The notes under the pieces: model-generated | Seen by the model: the letters and a program-made list of their open reading frames with translations, nothing else | Told to the model about the DNA's origin: nothing | Database searches by the model: none | Source of the DNA: Alphaproteobacteria bacterium | Lineage (GTDB): Bacteria; Pseudomonadota; Alphaproteobacteria; MPNO01 | NCBI GenBank assembly: GCA_965202905.1 | Contig: OZ241868.1 | Location: forward strand, 1,353,699-1,417,698 | Reading direction: 5' to 3' | Length of the DNA stretch: 64,000 nucleotides | In this document: in pieces, positions 38,182 to 45,003 of the stretch | Layout of the letters: each line of letters opens with the position of its first letter | Numbering within the stretch: position 1 is the first letter of the stretch | Translations under genes and position numbers: made by a program

Positions 38182-38520
38182 CCTCCTCCGGCTGCGACCG
38201 GCGCACGATAGGCGGCGCCCGCCCGGCGCTCAAGGCTTGTGGCGTCGCGATCCGGCCGGCTACGGTCTTTTCTACTCTGCCGCCTCCGCGTGCCCGGAGC
38301 GGTCGGCCAGCGCCGCCGGCGCGCCGTCGTCGGTGCGGAACAGGACGACCGGGTCCTCGCAGATCGTCCGGGCGAGCAGATCCCGGCCGAGATCCCCGGC
38401 GAGCGAGGCGACGCACCAGGCATTGCGCAGAAACATCGGCGCTCTCCATACTGGTCGGCCGCCGCGACCCTGGACCCGGACTCCGCGCGCGCAAGTGCTT
38501 TGACGCGGAGAGAATCGATG

Positions 38521-40201
38521 CCCGGGCACGATCTGGTCCTCCACAACGGACGTATCGTCACGCTCGACGGCGCCTCGCGCATCGCCCGGGCGGTGGCGGT
38601 GCGCGAGGGCCGGATCGCCGCGGTCGGCGAGGATGCGGAGATCCTGGCCGGTGCGGGCCCGCGCACGCGGCGCATCGACCTCAACGGCGCCGCGGTCACG
38701 CCCGGTATCTTCGACGCCCATCCCCATATGGACCGCGAGGGGCTGAAGCGCCGGGGCGGCCATCCGATCGAGGGCCTCGGCTCGATCGCGGGAATCTGCG
38801 AGGCGGTGCGCGAGGCCGCGGCGCGGACCCCGGCGGGCGAGTGGATCATCGCCATGCCGATGGAGCTCGCGCCCGAGGACGGTATGCCGCGCTATGTCAG
38901 TGAGCCGGAGGATCTCGCCGAAGGCCGTTTCCCCAATCGTCATGACCTCGACGGCGCGGCGCCGGACCATCCGGTCCTGATCCGCGGCGCCTGGGGCTGG
39001 TGGTCCAAGCCGCCGTTCCCGAGCGTCGCCAACTCACGCGCCCTGGAGCTCGCCGGCATTGGCCGCGACACCGCCGCGCCGCACCGGAGCGAGATCCTCA
39101 AGGAAGCCTCGGGCGAGCCGACGGGGGCGATGCTGGAGACCAACCGCGCCCCGGTCCTCGAATACACGCTCCTTGGCTGCGTACCCCGTTTCACCTTCGA
39201 GGACCGGATCGCCGCCGCGCGAATCGGCCCCAGGCTCTACAACGCCGCAGGCACCACCGCGGGGTTCGAGGGCCACGGCCTGACCCCGGCGTTGATCGAG
39301 GCCTACCGCCGCGCCGCCGAGTCGGGCGACCTGTCGGTCCGGCTGACCGCGAGCCTGAGCGTGCCCAGCGCGGTGATGAACGATGCCGGGGTAGCCGACC
39401 TGCTCCATCAATGGGCCGGGCGCATCGCGGCCCCCGGACGGCGCGAGGGGAACCTGGTCACCGACGGGATCTGTCTCGATTTCGGGCGATCCCGCAGTCG
39501 CGCGGATCATCGCCACCGGCTATCCTTACGAGGCTTGGGCCGGCCATTTCAGCCAGTCGGTCGGGCAGGAGAGACTCATCGCCATTGCGGTCCTGGCCGC
39601 CCGGCTCGGCATCCGGCTCGCCTGCATCTGCTACGACATCGAGGCTCTGCTCCAGGCCTACGAGGCGGTCGACCGCGAGGTTCCGATCCGCGACCGCCGC
39701 TGGGTGATGATGCACCTGACCCGGGCCAGCGACGACCAGCTCCGCCGGATCAAGGCGCTCGGCGTGATCGTGACCATGACACCCAACTTCATGTACCACG
39801 CAACCACGCGGCTGGGCCTTGCCGGGCTCGGCGCCGAGGGCACGCCGATCCGCCGGGTGATCGACGCCGGCATCCCGGTCGCGCTGTCGTCCGACAACGT
39901 GCCGGTCTCGATGTTCTGGGCGATGTGGTCGGCGTTGACCCGCTATGCCGGCGATTTGGGCGGACGGCTGGGCGAATCCGGACTCGCGCGCGAGGAGGCG
40001 CTGCGCCTGATCGCCCAGACCGGCCATGCGCTCACCTGGGACGAGGGACAGCGCGGGGCGATCGTACCGGGCATGGACGCCGATCTCACGGTGCTCGACC
40101 GCGATCCGCTGGTCTGTGCCGAGGACGAGATCAGGGACATCGCGGCCACGCGGACCTTCCTCGCCGGCCGCGAGGTCAGTCGTTCGCCATCGTTGCCTTG
40201 A
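38521..40201 (+). pseudogene. amidohydrolase-3 family metal-dependent hydrolase with one frameshift (or sequencing error) near 39480
   Basis: N-terminal part in frame 1 (MPGHDLVLHNGRIVTLDG...DGICLDF) continues in frame 2 (SGDPAVARIIATGYPYEAW...MMHLTRASDDQL...); the two ORFs are otherwise collinear with one ~560-aa protein. Confidence 0.55.
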
Positions 40202-40472
40202 CGATCTCGCGATCGACGACCATGTCCGCGGTGTCCGCGCGATAGGCGGCCATGTAGTCGGTCTGCATATGGTGGTCGACCGCCGCTTGGTCGGCGTAGA
40301 CCTCATAGAGCCGCACGATGTCCGATGTCCCCTCGGGTACGACGATGTCGAACCGCTCGCAGTCTGACTCTTCTCTCAGCACCCGCTCGCGGTGCTGCCT
40401 GCCCCGCGCGACGAACGCATCGCGCTTTCCTTCGGCGATCTTCAACTCGACAAGCAGGACGACGGCGCTCAT
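40176..40472 (-). CDS. antibiotic-biosynthesis-monooxygenase (ABM) domain protein
   Basis: ~98 aa from MSAVVLLVELK; ferredoxin-like ABM pattern; convergent 26-bp overlap with the amidohydrolase end. Confidence 0.6.
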   Translation of the reverse strand: MSAVVLLVELKIAEGKRDAFVARGRQHRERVLREESDCERFDIVVPEGTSDIVRLYEVYADQAAVDHHMQTDYMAAYRADTADMVVDREIVKATMAND

Positions 40473-40677
40473 CCGGACCTCCTTTATCCTTCGGTTATCG
40501 TCGCGGCGGAGAAATATTATTGCACCAAAACGGGTTATGGCAGATTTGCATGAGGGCTTCAAACGCGTATTGAAACTAAATCAACACGGTGCATGAATCA
40601 TGAACAAGGCGACGCAAGCGCCGACAGAGGCTGCCCACGCGCCGACTCGGGCCGACGCCGGCGGGCCGCCCTCTGGT

Positions 40678-41007
40678 TCAATCCTCGCGCGGCTCCCACA
40701 TCCAGGCTGGAATGTCGCACACCCCATGCAGGACGCGCCAGACATCAATGTCCGCCTCCCTCTCGACATGGAAGATCAGGTACGGAAACCTTCCGGGCGG
40801 CCGGAAGCGCAGGCCGGGAATATCCAGCTCGTGCGCATGGCGCGGCGAGCCGCTCCCCGGCCGGTCGCCGATTCGGTGGCGCGCATCTTCCAGCGCGTCG
40901 ATGAAGGCCAGCGCAACCGCCGGTTTCGCCTCGACCAGATAGTGATCGACCGCCTCATCGATATCGCGTCTCGCCCGCTCTCGAAGGACGACCGGCTTGC
41001 CGCTCAC
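40678..41007 (-). CDS. parE: type II toxin, ParE/RelE family
   Basis: GTG start; ...RRDIDEAVDHY...GSGSPRHAHELDIPGLRFRPPGRFPYLIFHVEREADIDVWRVLHG matches the ParE pattern. Confidence 0.75.
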   Translation of the reverse strand: MSGKPVVLRERARRDIDEAVDHYLVEAKPAVALAFIDALEDARHRIGDRPGSGSPRHAHELDIPGLRFRPPGRFPYLIFHVEREADIDVWRVLHGVCDIPAWMWEPRED

Positions 41008-41243
41008 CGCCGGCCGGCTTCGCGGACCCGGCCGCAGAGTCGGTCGAAGTAGTCCGCATCGGCCGTGACCGCCGGCGACGACGACGCGCCTTCGAGAAGC
41101 AGGGCGCGCAAGCGCTGACGATCCTGATCCTTGCGGATCAGTTCCCGGACATACTCGCTTGACGTGCTGTAGCCGCACGCGCTGACCTGATCGTCCACGA
41201 AGTTCTTGAGCGCCGCGGGAAGCGATGTGTTCATCGTGGTCAT
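41004..41243 (-). CDS. parD: type II antitoxin, ParD (ribbon-helix-helix)
   Basis: 79 aa; MNTSLPAALKNFVDDQVSACGYSTSSEYVRELIRKDQDRQ is ParD-like; GTGA overlap with the toxin start. Confidence 0.75.
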   Translation of the reverse strand: MTTMNTSLPAALKNFVDDQVSACGYSTSSEYVRELIRKDQDRQRLRALLLEGASSSPAVTADADYFDRLCGRVREAGRR

Positions 41244-41249
41244 GAGCCG

Positions 41250-41290
41250 AGACTACGAGACTAACGGCATTGGCAAAGTTTGGCAAGAAG
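41250..41290 (-). promoter_or_regulatory. candidate parDE operator/promoter (direct repeats)
   Basis: TTGGCAA repeated at 41270-41276 and 41280-41286 (10-bp phasing) and GAGACTA repeated twice, 7-45 bp upstream of the parD ATG. Confidence 0.3.
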
Positions 41291-41664
41291 CCGCCGTTCG
41301 GTTCGCGTCCCTTGAGGCAACGACAATCGCCGCCATCCACCGACAGGCGTGCGAATCGGGCGTTCACCCCGCATTTCCCCAGTGAACTTCGGCTCTGGAC
41401 CTTCTGAACGCTGCGTGGACCACCGCGGCCAAAGGCTGCTGCTTAATGACCACCACTGCAACAAATGGTGAAACCACGGCTGCCAGTACTGGCGGCGTGG
41501 TAGAGAACGCGCTGATTTTGGCATTTTACAGCCAAATTCCGGGCATCATCCGTTCACGAAGTGCCGATGTCGCCCCGATCTCTCAAAAGCACTCGGAAAC
41601 CGGGTTGAGTTTCCAGATTTTGGTCCATAGCTTCACAGAAGGCGCTCCAAATGAGAAATTTCGG

Positions 41665-41859
41665 ATGAAGACACAGAATTTCGCCGGACTCGCGCTGGCC
41701 GTTCTCGCGATGAGCGGTCTGACCGGTTGCGGTTCGGCCTATTCCGGCCTGATGGGTGCCTCGGGCCTCGGCGCCGCCGACACCACCCGCCAACACTTCC
41801 TCGAAGTCCTGCTGCAAGAGGCGCTCTCGCCGGGTGAGGAACGGGAGGCAGCGGCATGA
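41665..41859 (+). CDS. small Gly-rich lipoprotein (entericidin-like?)
   Basis: 64 aa; signal plus lipobox LAMSGLTGC; stop overlaps start of the next gene (ATGA); reduced GC. Confidence 0.4.
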   Translation: MKTQNFAGLALAVLAMSGLTGCGSAYSGLMGASGLGAADTTRQHFLEVLLQEALSPGEEREAAA

Positions 41860-43007
41860 CGGTCACCATCCCATCCACCCGCGATTTCGGCACTGCGTTC
41901 CAGCGATTTCAGGAACTGATCAAAGCCAAATCCGGCCACCCGTTCCGGAGTTTCGACGAAGGCCTCGCCAGAGAACGGGAAAGCTATAAGCCGCGCTTGC
42001 GCGACCATGCTCTATCCCTGCTGGACATCGGGGCTTGGTCCGAGGACGAGATCGGTTCGGGTACGATCCTGAACCGTACGATCGAAGCGATCGAGATCCA
42101 GGATGGCCGCCTCAAACGGACCAACAACCTTGTATTGTGGCAGAACCGTTATGGCCACGCCAACCGCGATCACCGCGCCCTGCTGGAGGCGGCGACGAAC
42201 CCGAAACTGCGTACCGAGTTCGAGGGCCTGCTGTTTGGCCTATATCACAGCAATGAGGACGAGAGCGCGACCTTCGATCGGCTGAGCGATTTGGCGGGCC
42301 GCAAGTATCCGCTCATCGCCTATCTTTTTTTCCTCAAGGATATGGACCGGTTCATGCCGATCCAGCCAACGGGTTTCGACCGCGCCTTCCGCGCACTTGG
42401 CATCGATTTCACCACGCTACGCCAATGCAGTTGGGATAACTACGCCGCCTATAACGCAACGCTGGATGGATTGCGATCCTTGATCGCCGATGCGGCCGGG
42501 ATCAATGCCGTCCGTCTGGTCGATGCGCATTCCTTCTGCTGGATTTTCTCGTTGCTTATCAACAAGAAGGAAGACAAGGGGGCTCTTGAACGGGCGCCGG
42601 GGGGTAAGGATAAGGGCCGCACTCTCGAGGGGCGGGAGAAATCCATCATCGATATGCGTTATTCGGTCGAGAATACGGTGCGAAACGCGAATGGCCAGAT
42701 CGTGAAACGCACGGTGAAGAACAAGGATCTGCGGATGAGTTCTGCCGAGCTTGATAAGCATATCGCCTCTCTGCTCGACCGTCAGGATGACCGTTGCGCG
42801 TTGACCGGAATACCTTTCCATTTCCACGATCCCGACTCGGACAAGAACCTGCTTCCGTCATTGGATCGGATCGACAGCGACGGTCACTACGAAGCGGGTA
42901 ACCTCCAGATCCTCTGTCGGTTCATCAATGTCTGGAAAGGCGCCTATGACAATGAGGAGTTCAAGCGCCTGCTGATGCTCGTGCGCGACGTCGAAGCGGA
43001 AGAATAG
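41856..43007 (+). CDS. two-domain protein: uncharacterised N-terminal domain plus C-terminal HNH-like nuclease motif
   Basis: 383 aa; C-terminus RCALTGIPFHFHDPDSDKNLLPSLDRIDSDGHYEAGNLQILCRFINVWKG fits the HNH pattern (C-x2-T...H-x-H...N...N-x2-K); no Walker motifs; GC ~55% against ~68% background. Confidence 0.65.
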   Translation: MTVTIPSTRDFGTAFQRFQELIKAKSGHPFRSFDEGLARERESYKPRLRDHALSLLDIGAWSEDEIGSGTILNRTIEAIEIQDGRLKRTNNLVLWQNRYGHANRDHRALLEAATNPKLRTEFEGLLFGLYHSNEDESATFDRLSDLAGRKYPLIAYLFFLKDMDRFMPIQPTGFDRAFRALGIDFTTLRQCSWDNYAAYNATLDGLRSLIADAAGINAVRLVDAHSFCWIFSLLINKKEDKGALERAPGGKDKGRTLEGREKSIIDMRYSVENTVRNANGQIVKRTVKNKDLRMSSAELDKHIASLLDRQDDRCALTGIPFHFHDPDSDKNLLPSLDRIDSDGHYEAGNLQILCRFINVWKGAYDNEEFKRLLMLVRDVEAEE

Positions 43008-43478
43008 ATGGGTATCAACCTCGTCATCGCCGTCACCGATGGAGACCGGTTCGAGATGCTGCGGCGGCAGCCGGACCTTGGCGAGGTGAATTTCTGGACG
43101 CCCTCGGCGGCGAACTTCCGCGCGCTCCAGCCGAACGAACTGTTCTGTTCAAGCTGTACGCGCTGCACAACGTGATCGTCGGCGGAGGCATATTCGCCTA
43201 TGCCAATGCGTTGCCGTGTTCGTTGGCCTGGGGGCGTTCGGCGAGACGAATGGCGCGTGCTCAGCGCGGGAGATGCATGCCCGCATTGCCAAATATCTCC
43301 AGGCGGACTTGGACGGCCGCCAAGTCAGGCATCGACCGCGAGCGGGTCAGCCCTCTCATGGCCGGAACCCACGAGTCGGGCAGAGAGTTGGGGACCATGG
43401 TCAGATGAAGTTATTCAAAAAGAAGGTGCGTGTAACTCCCGAAATTTTTTGGATCGCCAAGTTCAGAATGTCATGATC
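43008..43478 (+). pseudogene. decayed remnant of a putative HNH/restriction-type endonuclease gene (at least two frameshifts plus truncation)
   Basis: Frame 0 MGINLVIAVTDGDRFEMLRRQPDLGEVNFWTPS...ELF, frame 2 ...NVIVGGGIFAYANALPCSLAW, frame 1 GAFGETNGACSAREMHARIAKYLQ; collinear pieces of one N-terminal domain that then dissolve into AT-rich DNA. Confidence 0.45.
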
Positions 43479-43493
43479 GAATGAAAGAATTAT

Positions 43494-43805
43494 ATGAGAC
43501 AGTTATTTGAAAAATGTGAGATCGAAATCCTGAATGAAAAATTATTCACATTTTGCACTTTCTTTCCAATATTATCAATAAGCTTGGCTAATTTAGAAGA
43601 CGATATTCAGCTGTGTTACTCGAATCGAATTGCCGCAGAACTGGAGAGCCGATTCGGTAGAGGTATTGAAGAACAGTTCAAAATCCGTACGTTAGAATAT
43701 CTTTTTTCTTACTTAGCTTTTGTTATTCCAGGATGCATGAAAGTAGATATTCCTTTCTTCAGAGACCTCAAATTTGTGAGGAGCAAAAAGGGGGTATCAG
43801 CATGA
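43494..43805 (+). CDS. hypothetical protein in ~35% GC tract (orphan, possibly non-functional)
   Basis: 103-aa ORF in strongly AT-rich DNA, unlike the host composition. Confidence 0.3.
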   Translation: MRQLFEKCEIEILNEKLFTFCTFFPILSISLANLEDDIQLCYSNRIAAELESRFGRGIEEQFKIRTLEYLFSYLAFVIPGCMKVDIPFFRDLKFVRSKKGVSA

Positions 43806-44001
43806 GGTTGAGCCTCGAGAGACGGCCCGAGTAGAATCGGATGATGGCCGTCGTCTCGCTCTTCCTTTATCCTTTGGTTCTCGCGCTAGTCTAGCAGGTT
43901 TATCGTCACGGTCACCCCGCTTCACAAGCACCTCGCCCGCAACAGAGCGGATCGCGAACGGTGGGATACGATGTCGAGACCTCCGATCGCGCTCACCGCG
44001 G

Positions 44002-45003
44002 TCAGTGGCCAGCCGCCTCTTCGCGCAACAGGCCGAGACGGGTGAGGATCTCGCGGTCGGAGAAGACGAACAGGACCGTGCCGGGCGCGGCCGCGAAATG
44101 GCTGATCCAGTGGCCGGCAGGCAGGGTGAAGACATCGTTGCGGGACCATTCGAGCGTCGTCTCGCCGATCGACGAACGGCCTTCGCCCTCAATAACCAGG
44201 CATCCCGCGCTGGCGTTGGTGCGACAGGGCGCGCTCGGCCGGCCGGAGTGGAGCGCGACCAGCGAGCACTCGATCGTCGGCAGTGCCGGGCCCCCGGTGA
44301 GCGGGTTGGTGTAGCGCAGCCGCCGGGCGCCGTCCGCCTCCGGCGCAAGCCCGGCGAGCGCCTGGGCGGCGCTTGCCCAGGGGTAGCGGAACATCGGCGA
44401 ATACGGCGTCTCGCCCGGCGGGCCCGCCGGCACCAAGCCCGGCGAGGCGAACGCCGGGTCCGCCGGCAGTTCGCCGGCCGGGCCCGGCTCGAATACGCCG
44501 TTGTCGAGAAACCGGTTGAGCGGCACGTCCAGCACGTCAAGCCAGACCATCCGCCCCTCGGCCTCGTGGACATGTTCATGCCAAGTCCAGCCCGGCGTCA
44601 GGATCATATCGCCGCGCACCATCGGACACGACTTGCCGTCGACGACGGTTTCCGCGCCTTGGCCGTCGATGACGAAGCGCAGCGCGTTCATCGTGTGGCG
44701 GTGCGGCCGGGCGCGCTCGCCCGGCAACAGGACCTGCAGCGCCGCGCTCAGCGTCACGCTGGTGCCGTTGCCGCGGCCCTCGGCGACCCGGTGGGGGCTG
44801 TTGAGCTGCAGCACCCGGCGCTCGGCCTCGTCCATCGACACCGCATCGATCGCCGCCTCGATCAGCGGATCCATCACCGACCATCGCCAGATGTGGGGCG
44901 GTTCCGGCGGCCGGTTGGTCGTGCCCGCCTGCTCCCAGAGCGCGGCCACGCTCGCCGCGTTCATCGCTTCGTGAAACGCATCGCGTGAAACCGGTTCGGC
45001 CAT
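44002..45003 (-). CDS. bicupin dioxygenase (gentisate 1,2-dioxygenase-like)
   Basis: 333 aa; two cupin domains with His-containing motifs (HRHTMNALRFVIDGQG, HEHVHEAEG). Confidence 0.7.
   Translation of the reverse strand: MAEPVSRDAFHEAMNAASVAALWEQAGTTNRPPEPPHIWRWSVMDPLIEAAIDAVSMDEAERRVLQLNSPHRVAEGRGNGTSVTLSAALQVLLPGERARPHRHTMNALRFVIDGQGAETVVDGKSCPMVRGDMILTPGWTWHEHVHEAEGRMVWLDVLDVPLNRFLDNGVFEPGPAGELPADPAFASPGLVPAGPPGETPYSPMFRYPWASAAQALAGLAPEADGARRLRYTNPLTGGPALPTIECSLVALHSGRPSAPCRTNASAGCLVIEGEGRSSIGETTLEWSRNDVFTLPAGHWISHFAAAPGTVLFVFSDREILTRLGLLREEAAGH

What the first reader, a model, noticed from the sequence alone, without database searches (positions are those of the whole stretch)
41665..43007. 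Candidate novel defence-type module: small lipoprotein translationally coupled to a 383-aa protein with unknown N-terminal domain and C-terminal HNH-like nuclease
A 64-aa Gly-rich lipoprotein (MKTQNFAGLALAVLAMSGLTGC..., entericidin-like in size and composition) ends with TGA overlapping the ATG of the next gene (gcggcATGAcgg), implying co-translation. The 383-aa product has ~300 aa with no recognisable ATPase, methyltransferase or helicase motif, then RCALTGIPFHFHDPDSDKNLLPSLDRIDSDGHYEAGNLQILCRFINVWKG. That segment fits the HNH beta-beta-alpha-metal pattern (C-x2-T, H-x-H, catalytic Asn, N-x2-K) with partly replaced zinc-ligand cysteines. There is no adjacent methyltransferase, so it is not a classic type II restriction-modification system. 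A lipoprotein plus a sensor/HNH effector pair inside a decaying defence island next to a toxin-antitoxin pair does not match any named system I can recall (Septu, Zorya, Gabija, Shedu and others have different partners). It is the most likely previously undescribed system in the window.
Basis: partly seen in the sequence, partly recalled or inferred. Interest (0 to 1): 0.7.

Follow-up and report, generated by a model that had tools for sequence, protein, structure and literature searches.

The report
Orphaned restriction-operon nuclease, not lipoprotein pair
The "lipoprotein" is a leftover tail of a deleted restriction-enzyme gene fused to unrelated DNA, while the 383-aa gene is an intact member of a large, unnamed family of probable DNA-cutting defence proteins that normally sits at the end of type I restriction-modification operons.

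Summary
Both ORFs and the ATGA overlap are present as described, but the two-gene system is not real. The last 26 codons of the "lipoprotein" are the 3' end of an hsdS gene. In the closest relatives an intact hsdS ends with the same ATGA overlap. Everything upstream of 41762 is unrelated, and the ORF has no relative anywhere.

The 383-aa gene is real and appears to be under purifying selection. It belongs to a large family (more than 1000 sequence clusters, mostly Alphaproteobacteria) that has no match in Pfam, NCBIfam or PADLOC. In 26 of 66 loci with usable upstream sequence it follows hsdR-hsdM-hsdS.

The downstream gene varies between loci. It is usually a predicted nuclease. In this window it is an HNH_2 gene, now frameshifted and truncated.

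The protein has two domains:
- **N-terminal:** an all-helical domain with a distant 8-oxoguanine-glycosylase-like fold.
- **C-terminal:** a PacI-type His-Me finger. The canonical His is Arg, and an invariant Tyr, Asp and Asn match the PacI motif.

Relatives swap either domain for other nuclease domains or other N-terminal domains. My best reading is a modification-sensing (END-like, type IV-like) restriction nuclease orphaned by decay of a 3.4-kb island. That makes it a new variant of a known kind. The function is untested.

The parts
41665..41761 (+). 5' two-thirds of the 'lipoprotein' ORF (MKTQNFAGLALAVLAMSGLTGC...). It has a signal-peptide-like sequence and a lipobox. Its origin is unknown and it is unrelated to hsdS.
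   Evidence: It has no homology to the hsdS genes of relatives at DNA or protein level; scores equal those of shuffled sequence. No relative was found in related loci or in the metagenome scan. Only weak sub-threshold lipoprotein-signal matches appeared.
41762..41859 (+). 3' relic of a type I restriction-modification specificity gene (hsdS). It supplies the last ~26-32 codons and the TGA of the 'lipoprotein' ORF.
   Evidence: The blastn homology to L006-L008, L010 and L011 begins at 41762, which corresponds to ~94 nt before the end of hsdS in those loci. The protein tail is 19/27 identical to L007 HsdS, with the same frame and the same ATGA overlap.
41843..41848 (+). Shine-Dalgarno sequence GGGAGG, 7 nt upstream of the ATG of the 383-aa gene. 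It is conserved in relatives.
   Evidence: Read directly from the sequence. The junction alignment with L007 and L010 shows cgggaggc.gc.gcATGAcgg conserved.
41856..43007 (+). Intact 383-aa gene of an unnamed family, with a predicted sensor domain and a nuclease domain.
   Evidence: 1082 homologues in the 5.8-billion-sequence search. 2626 cluster representatives at 50% identity reach E<=1e-3. dN/dS is 0.11-0.19. The only indel is an in-frame +3 nt. The AlphaFold2 model has mean pLDDT 88.8.
41856..42584 (+). N-terminal all-helical domain (residues 1-243) with a distant 8-oxoguanine-glycosylase / HhH-GPD-like fold. It is the proposed DNA or base sensor.
42630..43004 (+). C-terminal module (residues 259-383): a long helix followed by a PacI-type His-Me finger (HNH-like) nuclease domain. 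The core motif lies at 42858-42938 (S335-K361).
43008..43323 (+). Pseudogene relic of the downstream HNH_2 (PF13391) endonuclease gene. Its ATG directly follows the TAG of the 383-aa gene.
   Evidence: tblastn with the 306-aa L007 protein finds residues 1-45, 44-75 and 73-106 in three different frames. Residues 107-306, which include the HNH_2 domain, are absent. 1-nt deletions lie at 43145, 43232 and 43322. The intact gene is present in L006-L008 and L010.
40681..41243 (-). parE (40681-41001) and parD (41007-41243) toxin-antitoxin pair. They are context and lie inside the same low-GC island.
   Evidence: ParE_toxin PF05016 E=3.8e-10 and ParD_antitoxin PF03693 E=4.5e-4. TIGR02606 E=1.6e-11.
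40480..40500 (.). Left copy of an imperfect direct repeat (TCCTTTATCCTTCGGTTATCG) that brackets the low-GC island.
   Evidence: It matches 43863-43883 at 19 of 21 positions, with weaker similarity over ~45 nt. GC falls from ~0.72 to 0.55-0.64 between the copies.
43863..43883 (.). Right copy of the same direct repeat (TCCTTTATCCTTTGGTTCTCG).

Best explanation
The region is the stump of a mobile defence cassette. About 3.4 kb of low-GC DNA lies between imperfect direct repeats at 40480 and 43863. The cassette once carried an EcoAI-type type I restriction-modification operon laid out hsdR-hsdM-hsdS-[this gene]-[HNH_2 endonuclease].

A deletion removed hsdR, hsdM and all but the last ~98 nt of hsdS. 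That tail became joined to unrelated DNA that happens to open with a lipoprotein-like signal. The resulting chimeric ORF inherits the ancestral hsdS stop/start overlap (ATGA) with the next gene, so it is not a functional partner. The downstream HNH_2 gene has decayed through frameshifts and truncation.

The 383-aa gene alone is intact. I read its product as a self-contained nuclease with two domains:
- An N-terminal helical domain with a fold like the Ogg/EndoIII DNA glycosylases. It probably binds DNA and probes bases. It is most likely a non-catalytic sensor of unusual or hypermodified bases, as in the END nucleases.
- A C-terminal PacI-type His-Me finger that cuts DNA. I infer that Y345 acts as the general base or nucleophile in place of the usual histidine, that D337 and N358 hold the metal, and that R338 and K361 contact the phosphate.

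In intact operons the gene would be co-expressed with the type I enzyme and would extend restriction to DNA that type I enzymes cannot attack.

Shown here: the chimeric origin of the small ORF, the operon context, the decay of the neighbours, the domain folds and motifs, and the domain shuffling across the family. Inferred: nuclease activity, dependence on DNA modification, a defence role, and expression in this genome.
For: Relic origin of the small ORF:
- Nucleotide homology to L006-L008, L010 and L011 runs only from 41762 to 43320.
- The HsdS tail, frame and ATGA junction are identical in layout.
- No hsdS signal exists upstream of 41762, and no hsdR or hsdM lies anywhere in the window.

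Operon context:
- 26 of 66 loci have hsdS within 1.6 kb upstream on the same strand, and 15 of these have a 4-nt stop/start overlap.
- Gene calls show hsdR-hsdM-hsdS-gene-HNH_2 or hsdR-hsdM-hsdS-gene-DUF4011 helicase.
- A RefSeq-annotated Paracoccus plasmid carries an EcoAI-family R subunit, an FRG protein, a methyltransferase, a NucS-domain protein, the S subunit and then the family gene annotated 'hypothetical protein'.
- Elsewhere the gene follows a type ISP enzyme, ZorD or a UvrD-nuclease.
- Downstream genes include a DrmC-like PLD protein, PDC-S11 (NucS_C), PDC-S37/Hhe and HNH_2.

The gene is maintained: dN/dS is 0.11-0.19 and there are no frameshifts, against 2-3 in the adjacent 315 nt.

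Folds:
- PacI lacks the catalytic His and uses a Tyr, with Asp and Asn on the metal (PMC5714182, PMC4081073).
- HHpred matched the sensor domain of END-Mag to the T. maritima and M. jannaschii Oggs as well (PMC12191111).

Modularity typical of modification-dependent nucleases:
- The N-domain is fused instead to NOV_C/DUF3883, HNH_2 or HNH.
- The C-terminal module is fused to another N-terminal domain in viral contigs.
- Two members carry an N-terminal DUF3427 (E=1e-7).
Against: - No biochemical or phage data exist for any member of the family.
- No family member hits PF21790, HhH-GPD or any HNH Pfam model.
- The PacI sequence match alone is weak (E=0.67).
- PacI's two Cys4 zinc sites are not retained; only C314 and C354 are invariant.
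- The invariant acidic and basic residues in the N-domain (E42, K45, D223, H225) could mean the domain is an enzyme and not a passive sensor.
- The tight coupling to hsdS could reflect a physical role in the type I complex and not an independent nuclease.
- No promoter was identified for the orphaned gene in this window, so it may be silent here.
Confidence: 0.6

Rival explanations
1. One reading: the 64-aa lipoprotein and the 383-aa HNH protein form a co-translated two-gene defence system, with an envelope sensor and a nuclease effector.
For: The ORF, the lipobox and the ATGA overlap are real. A gene caller did call an ORF here (137-aa version).
Against: The ORF's 3' third is an hsdS relic. 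None of 88 related loci and no metagenome contig carries a relative. It is a singleton in a collection of 15 billion proteins. In relatives the upstream overlapping gene is hsdS.
Confidence: 0.03
2. The protein is an accessory or 'guard' subunit of the type I restriction enzyme, by analogy with PrrC, which is embedded in EcoprrI. It would be held latent by the HsdM/HsdS complex and unleashed as a nuclease when a phage anti-restriction protein disables the enzyme.
For: A 4-nt stop/start overlap with hsdS occurs in 15 loci, and the position at the 3' end of hsdRMS operons is conserved. The long form carries an extra ~107-aa N-terminal domain in 28 loci, which could be a docking domain. The precedent of nucleases embedded in type I loci comes from my own knowledge of PrrC and RloC.
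Against: About 60% of loci lack hsdRMS. The gene also follows type ISP, ZorD or UvrD-nuclease genes, or stands alone. An intact copy persists here without any hsdM or hsdS. A guard nuclease that needs masking would be expected to be toxic or quickly lost in that situation. Fusions of a sensor domain to a nuclease domain are typical of autonomous enzymes.
Confidence: 0.12
3. The N-terminal domain is an active DNA glycosylase (as in Brig1, Dag or PabI-type restriction glycosylases). It would excise a modified or foreign base, and the C-terminal domain would then cleave at or near the abasic site.
For: The fold resembles the Ogg/EndoIII glycosylases. Invariant E42, K45, N90, N91 and H225 and near-invariant D162 and D223 could form an active site. 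Defence glycosylases of the HhH superfamily are documented (bioRxiv 10.1101/2025.10.29.685425).
Against: By sequence position, the residues expected to be the HhH-GPD catalytic Lys and Asp (K150, D175) vary across the family. This is my inference without a structural superposition. Published fusions of this fold to nucleases have inactive sensors (PMC12191111). No Pfam glycosylase model matches.
Confidence: 0.15
4. The copy in this window is a non-functional leftover. It is intact only because the island decayed recently, and it is not transcribed.
For: Its operon promoter and upstream genes are gone. No sigma-70-like promoter was found between 41244 and 41856. Both neighbours are relics. W41R and F359V differ from residues that are >=90% conserved among close relatives.
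Against: There are no frameshifts in 1149 nt, against 2-3 in the next 315 nt. If indels fell uniformly, the probability of zero is ~7e-4 or lower. All residues that are invariant across the family are retained. dN/dS is 0.19 against the closest relative. The Shine-Dalgarno sequence is kept, and read-through from upstream is possible.
Confidence: 0.25

Closest known systems
END nucleases (iEndoIII/Ogg-like sensor fused to a nuclease; Yee et al., bioRxiv 2025, PMC12191111)
   Same: Both are single polypeptides that combine an Ogg/EndoIII-like helical domain with a DNA nuclease domain. The structural neighbours are the same: HHpred matched END-Mag's sensor to the T. maritima and M. jannaschii Oggs, and these are the Ogg hits found here. 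Both lie in defence islands, and END-PaCF1 lies in an island with a type I R-M system. Both families show modular swapping of the nuclease domain.
   Different: The domain order is reversed here, with the sensor at the N-terminus. The nuclease is a PacI-type His-Me finger, whereas the paper lists PLD, NucS-like PD-(D/E)xK and McrB fusions. No member hits PF21790, so sequence-level homology to the END sensors is unproven. This family is frequently translationally coupled to hsdS, whereas END-PaCF1 had no conserved neighbour. Its function is untested.
PacI restriction endonuclease (His-Me finger group 20; PDB 3ldy/3m7k)
   Same: The core motif and its spacing are the same: DRxDSxxxYxxxNxxxxCxxxNxxK. 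Arg occupies the position of the canonical His. A Tyr lies in the loop, and Asp and Asn match PacI's metal ligands. PacI is the best structural match among HNH domains (PMC5714182, PMC4081073).
   Different: PacI is a 142-aa type IIP homodimer with two Cys4 zinc sites and a small HTH-like N-terminal part. Here only two cysteines are conserved, and a 240-aa Ogg-like domain and a long helix precede the finger. Sequence similarity is marginal (E=0.67). The 2017 survey listed only 4 bacterial members of the PacI group, whereas this family has more than 1000 clusters.
Modular type IV / modification-dependent endonucleases (McaZI-type DUF3427-DUF3883, PUA/EVE/SRA-HNH; Lutz et al. 2019, PMC6765204) and PD-T4-1
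   Same: The layout is a reader domain plus a nuclease domain with extensive shuffling. Paralogues of the N-domain carry NOV_C/DUF3883 or HNH_2, and their NOV_C part matches the PADLOC models PD-T4-1 and PDC-S36. Two members carry DUF3427. The genes sit in defence islands.
   Different: The family itself has no PADLOC, Pfam or NCBIfam model. Specificity for modified DNA is only inferred.
Genes embedded in type I R-M operons (PrrC in EcoprrI; the E. coli immigration control region with hsdRMS, mrr and mcrBC)
   Same: The gene is co-located, and apparently co-transcribed, with hsdRMS and with further nucleases that look like type IV enzymes.
   Different: It has no sequence or fold relation to PrrC (an ABC-ATPase-like anticodon nuclease), Mrr or McrBC. 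Any dependence on the type I enzyme is untested, and many loci lack hsdRMS.

Membership tests
Bacterial lipoprotein / entericidin-like small protein (the 64-aa ORF) | Signal peptide with a lipobox [LVI][ASTVI][GAS]C | tested here: met
   The sequence MKTQNFAGLALAVLAMSGLTGC contains LTGC. This is a short, composition-driven pattern in a 60-70% GC genome.
Bacterial lipoprotein / entericidin-like small protein (the 64-aa ORF) | A conserved gene with homologues, or retention next to homologues of the 383-aa gene | tested here: not met
   No relative was found in 88 related loci or in the metagenome scan. It is a singleton in the protein collection. Only sub-threshold NCBIfam signal-peptide matches appeared. 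Its C-terminal third is an hsdS tail.
Type I restriction-modification system (EcoAI-type) | hsdR, hsdM and hsdS genes present | tested here: not met
   Only the last ~98 nt of hsdS remain. No hsdR, hsdM or hsdS match exists elsewhere in the 64-kb window. Relatives have all three genes.
His-Me finger (HNH) superfamily, PacI group | Beta-beta-alpha-metal fold | tested here: met
His-Me finger (HNH) superfamily, PacI group | Canonical general-base His absent; Tyr in the omega-loop instead; metal held by Asp and Asn | tested here: met
   The profile alignment to PacI pairs D337-R338 with PacI D-R, Y345 with the Tyr of the EGY motif, and N358 with the Asn of CN. All are invariant in 34 diverse members, and no His is invariant in the domain. 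PacI's mechanism is taken from PMC5714182 and PMC4081073. Catalysis itself is not testable here.
His-Me finger (HNH) superfamily, PacI group | Two Cys4 zinc sites | tested here: not met
   Only C314 and C354 are invariant. The positions of the partner cysteines are T317 and I/V357.
His-Me finger (HNH) superfamily, PacI group | Significant sequence match to a curated HNH model or to PacI | tested here: inconclusive
   No Pfam HNH family matched any of 34+68 members. The profile against PDB sequences hits PacI only, at E=0.67.
END nucleases (PMC12191111) | EndoIII/Ogg-like sensor domain | tested here: inconclusive
END nucleases (PMC12191111) | Sensor lacks the glycosylase catalytic residues | tested here: inconclusive
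   The sequence positions that I infer correspond to the HhH Lys and Asp (K150, D175) vary across the family. No residue-level structural superposition was available.
END nucleases (PMC12191111) | Sensor fused to a DNA nuclease domain in one polypeptide | tested here: met
   The fused domain is a PacI-like finger here, and NOV_C, HNH_2 or HNH in paralogues. The HNH type and the N-terminal position of the sensor are not among the published architectures.
END nucleases (PMC12191111) | Restricts phages with hypermodified DNA | not testable with these tools
   This needs phage challenge experiments.
HNH_2 (PF13391) endonuclease (downstream ORF at 43008) | HNH_2 catalytic domain present and reading frame intact | tested here: not met
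   Only residues 1-106 of 306 are recognisable, spread over three frames. The HNH_2 region (residues 203-251 in L010) is missing.
Known defence systems in PADLOC-DB v2.0.0 | Match to any model | tested here: not met
   There were 0 families at E<=1 for the 383-aa protein, the 64-aa ORF and the 55-aa ORF.

The most novel reading that the evidence does not exclude
The family would be an undescribed class of restriction nuclease that pairs an Ogg-like base-sensing domain with a tyrosine-dependent PacI-type His-Me finger. It would be built into type I R-M operons, translationally coupled to hsdS, so that a single operon attacks both unmodified DNA (through HsdR) and hypermodified DNA (through this enzyme and the variable type IV-like gene behind it). 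This would also turn the PacI-type finger from a rarity (4 bacterial members in the 2017 survey) into a widespread bacterial effector module.
Probability: 0.35. Interest if true: 0.6.

Novelty: new variant of a known kind. Interest (0 to 1): 0.42.

Why it matters
The proposed lipoprotein-nuclease system does not exist, and showing that saves follow-up effort. What remains is a concrete and testable lead:
- The family is large and entirely unannotated, found mainly in Alphaproteobacteria and also in Acidobacteriota (Vicinamibacterales) and viral contigs.
- It sits at the 3' end of type I R-M, type ISP and Zorya loci.
- It combines a glycosylase-like fold with the unusual tyrosine-type PacI nuclease motif.

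If the family is active, three things would follow. The recently proposed END-nuclease principle would extend to a new nuclease class and a new domain order. There would be many natural examples of the PacI catalytic variant. Some type I operons would appear to carry a built-in second line of defence against phages with modified DNA.

The copy in this window is only an orphan in a decayed island, so it is a poor experimental starting point. Intact operons such as L010 or the Paracoccus seriniphilus plasmid are better.

Tried and rejected
- **Family libraries.** Pfam, NCBIfam and PADLOC scans of the 383-aa protein, the 64-aa ORF and the 55-aa ORF gave nothing useful. A single-sequence search against PDB sequences gave only noise.
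- **Long-form N-terminal domain.** I looked in the window for the ~107-aa N-terminal extension of the long form. It is absent.
- **Paralogy with downstream genes.** I tested whether the downstream PLD and NucS_C proteins of other loci share the N-domain, which would make them END-type paralogues. hhalign probability was below 1%. Their C-terminal parts look to me more like EVE/PUA-type domains; this is my reading of the consensus and was not tested.
- **Extent of the hsdS relic.** I tested whether hsdS homology extends upstream of 41762. It does not; scores equal shuffled controls.
- **Origin of the lipoprotein-like 5' part.** The metagenome scan found no relative.
- **Unavailable resources.** The AFDB50 fold library was not available. 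The PacI structure paper is not held. The END paper has no held supplements, so no END sequence could be compared.
- **Unhelpful literature hit.** A search for genes 'downstream of hsdS' led to a Zymomonas paper that was irrelevant.
- **Promoter and terminator scan.** It found no promoter in front of the gene. Its hits cluster in the AT-rich patch, and the terminator count equals that of shuffled sequence.
- **tRNA scan.** No tRNA gene was found between 30000 and 55000 that could serve as an integration site.
- **First structure model.** The first AlphaFold2 model, built from close homologues only, had a poor C-terminal domain (pLDDT 50-74). It was replaced by a model built on a diverse alignment.
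Full report
**1. The observation**

ORF 41856..43007 (+, 383 aa) and the quoted C-terminal peptide are in the sequence. An ATG at 41665 opens a 64-aa frame with a lipobox (LTGC). Its TGA (41857-41859) overlaps the ATG (41856-41858) of the 383-aa gene. A GGGAGG Shine-Dalgarno sequence lies at 41843-41848. A ParD/ParE pair lies at 40681..41243 on the minus strand. GC content drops from ~0.72 to 0.55-0.64 between ~40250 and ~43400, and to 0.36 at 43400-43700. The physical description is therefore correct.

**2. The 'lipoprotein' is a chimeric relic**

The 383-aa protein has more than 1000 homologues. Its closest relatives are P0002 and P0004, at 80% identity. They lie in operons laid out hsdR-(FRG)-hsdM-hsdS-[382 aa]-[306-aa HNH_2 protein]. 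In these operons the hsdS stop overlaps the start of the 382-aa gene by 4 nt.

Nucleotide homology between the window and these loci runs only from 41762 to 43320. That span covers the last ~94 nt of hsdS, the whole gene, and the first ~314 nt of the HNH_2 gene. The C-terminal 27 residues of the 'lipoprotein' are ADTTRQHFLEVLLQEALSPGEEREAAA. The end of L007 HsdS reads ADTTRQRLLEALLHEALEPASDREAAA, in the same frame and with the same ATGA junction.

Upstream of 41762 there is no hsdS signal at DNA or protein level; scores equal shuffled controls. No hsdR, hsdM or hsdS match exists anywhere else in the window. The small ORF has no relative in 88 related loci or in a metagenome scan. In the 15-billion-protein collection only a 137-aa version of it is recorded, as a singleton. 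The translational coupling is therefore a fossil of the hsdS-gene junction.

**3. The downstream gene is a pseudogene**

ATG 43008 directly follows the TAG of the 383-aa gene. It opens the start of the HNH_2 gene (MGINLVIAVTDGD...). Residues 1-45, 44-75 and 73-106 lie in three different frames, and the rest, including the HNH_2 domain, is missing. The alignment with L007 and L010 shows 1-nt deletions at 43145, 43232 and 43322. The 383-aa gene has only one in-frame 3-nt insertion, in its linker at 42560.

If the indel rate of the relic applied to the gene, the chance of no frameshift in 1149 nt would be about 7e-4 or lower. This is a rough calculation made after the fact. dN/dS against the nearest relatives is 0.11-0.19. 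All residues that are invariant across the family are retained. The gene has therefore been maintained while both its neighbours decayed. Whether it is still expressed is unknown, because no promoter-like site lies in front of it.

**4. Genomic context of the family**

In a scan of one genome per species, 77 loci were recovered. They are mostly Alphaproteobacteria (Rhizobiales, Rhodobacterales, Sphingomonadales, Rhodospirillales), with some Vicinamibacterales.

Upstream genes:
- Of 66 loci with usable upstream sequence, 26 have hsdS within 1.6 kb upstream on the same strand. In 15 of these the hsdS stop overlaps the family gene's start by 4 nt.
- Two further loci keep only an hsdR 5' fragment directly upstream. 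They are decayed in a way similar to this window.
- A RefSeq-annotated Paracoccus seriniphilus plasmid carries, in order, an EcoAI/FtnUII-family R subunit, an FRG protein, a methyltransferase, a NucS-domain protein, the S subunit, and then a 489-aa 'hypothetical protein' that is the family gene.
- Where hsdRMS is absent, the upstream gene can be a type ISP enzyme (L023), ZorD (L083), a ~1050-aa UvrD-PD-(D/E)xK protein or an AAA_27 protein.

Downstream genes vary and are mostly nucleases:
- HNH_2
- a PLD protein that matches a PADLOC DrmC model end to end (E=2e-180)
- a NucS_C protein that matches PDC-S11 (E=3.5e-155)
- a DUF4011/AAA_11/AAA_12/MTES_1575 helicase-nuclease that matches PDC-S37/Hhe
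- PRTase-CE with a wHTH domain
- an AIG2/GGACT protein

About 28 loci encode a long form with an extra ~107-aa N-terminal domain. That domain is absent from the window.

**5. Anatomy of the protein**

No curated library recognises the protein, and every annotated plasmid homologue is 'hypothetical protein'. A first AlphaFold2 model built on close homologues was mediocre (pLDDT 75). A second model built on 34 diverse members reached pLDDT 88.8. It shows three parts:
- a helical domain (residues 1-243)
- a disordered linker
- a long helix (259-278) followed by a beta-beta-alpha unit (strands 334-338 and 350-354, helix 355-360)

PacI is the documented His-Me finger that lacks the general-base histidine. 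It uses a tyrosine in the loop instead, and the metal is held by Asp and Asn (PMC5714182; PMC4081073). In the family, D337, R338, S341, Y345, N349, C354, N358, W360, K361 and C314 are invariant across members that are 29-60% identical. Only two of the zinc-ligand cysteine positions persist. The 2017 His-Me survey listed PacI's group as mainly from giant viruses, with four bacterial members. This family would therefore be a large bacterial expansion of that variant.

**6. Modularity**

Among the 150 best representatives of 50%-identity clusters, 33 have the full architecture. Of those, 14 also have N-terminal extensions of at least 90 aa. Another 68 keep the N-domain but carry a different C-terminus. 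In that group, 59 have NOV_C/DUF3883 (a PD-(D/E)xK domain), 6 have HNH_2 and 1 has HNH. The NOV_C parts match the PADLOC models PD-T4-1 and PDC-S36.

Conversely, viral/prophage contigs encode ~330-aa proteins with an unrelated N-terminal domain followed by the same long helix and PacI-like module. Two members carry DUF3427 (E=1e-7), the modified-DNA reader domain of SauUSI and McaZI (PMC6765204). This two-way shuffling of a putative reader and a nuclease is the signature of modification-dependent restriction enzymes.

**7. Comparison with known systems**

The closest published concept is the END nucleases (PMC12191111). In these, an inactive EndoIII/Ogg-like sensor is fused to a PLD, NucS-like or McrB module, and the enzyme restricts phages with hypermodified DNA. 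HHpred matched END-Mag's sensor to the T. maritima and M. jannaschii Oggs as well.

The differences are:
- the sensor is N-terminal
- the nuclease is PacI-type, which is not among the reported fusions
- no sequence-level link to END sensors could be shown
- the family is often translationally coupled to hsdS

Membership in the END family is therefore unproven. 'Works like an END or type IV nuclease' is the best-supported mechanism, and I put it at about 0.5. Section 9 gives the confidence in each part of the overall explanation.

The rival explanations are:
- a PrrC-like guard of the type I enzyme. The coupling to hsdS supports this. The many loci without hsdRMS, and this orphan copy, argue against it.
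- an active glycosylase-nuclease
- simple non-function of this copy

**8. Island boundaries**

An imperfect direct repeat brackets the low-GC stretch. The copies lie at 40480-40500 and 43863-43883 and match at 19 of 21 positions, with weaker similarity over ~45 nt. By my estimate about 0.004 such pairs are expected by chance in 4.5 kb. This is consistent with a heavily reduced integrated element that now contains only parDE, the chimeric ORF, the 383-aa gene, the HNH_2 relic and an AT-rich patch.

**9. Verdict**

The finding as framed, a lipoprotein plus HNH effector forming a new system, is not supported. The underlying gene is a genuine, uncharacterised defence-island nuclease candidate. It is a new variant of a known kind. 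My confidence by part:
- about 0.9 that the small ORF is a relic
- about 0.75 for the two-domain assignment
- about 0.5 for a modification-dependent restriction function

Noticed in passing
window 40480-40500 and 43863-43883: An imperfect 21-nt direct repeat (19 of 21 identical, with weaker similarity over ~45 nt) brackets the 3.4-kb low-GC stretch. The copies may be att-like ends of a reduced integrated element. The left copy lies just upstream of a small ABM-like ORF (40176..40562, minus strand). The right copy lies just beyond the stop of the cupin-like ORF 44002..45003 (minus strand).
   Followed up: partly
window 43400-43850: An AT-rich patch (GC 0.36-0.41) lies in a ~70% GC genome. It holds a 103-aa ORF (43494..43805, MRQLFEKCEIEILNEK...) that was not tested for homologues. 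Five of the six sigma-70-like promoter hits in the scanned region (40500-44100) fall here or just past its right edge (the fifth runs 43808-43837). It lies between the end of the HNH_2 relic and the right repeat.
   Followed up: no
window 38239-40245: The 668-aa ORF starts like an amidohydrolase, but its last third reads like out-of-frame sequence. A separate ORF in another frame (39704..40201) carries a plausible amidohydrolase C-terminus. This suggests a frameshifted host gene next to the island.
   Followed up: no
L092-L100 (IMG/VR viral contigs), e.g. L093:330-1310: A family of ~330-aa proteins has an unrelated ~190-aa N-terminal domain (MKVFIANFGRENYEWPECLARGTIAT...) followed by the same long helix and PacI-like finger. 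They have no Pfam, NCBIfam or PADLOC match.
   Followed up: partly
P0053 residues 1-107; L013-L083 (about 28 loci): The long form of the family carries an extra, well-conserved ~107-aa N-terminal domain (MTLAIAEAEAILRSRLGEPAKPPTDY...LRVEV...FLDWY) with no Pfam match. Other members have different extensions, with hits to DUF3427 and weak hits to DUF7225. The extension is absent from the window copy and its closest relatives.
   Followed up: partly
L083 (Shimia marina) and L023 (Brucella anthropi): A family member lies directly downstream of a ZorD homologue (PADLOC E=0) in L083 and of a 1640-aa type ISP restriction-modification enzyme in L023. The association is therefore with defence operons in general, not only with classical type I systems.
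   Followed up: partly
L053 and L059: In these two loci only the first ~100 codons of hsdR remain directly upstream of the family gene. This is a second kind of decayed type I operon that has kept the gene.
   Followed up: no
window 41595-41614: A hairpin followed by a T-rich tail (GGAAACCGGGTTGAGTTTCC AGATTTTGGT) lies ~50 nt upstream of the ATG at 41665, inside the 137-aa ORF that a gene caller reported. The number of terminator-like hits in the region is no higher than in shuffled sequence.
   Followed up: no
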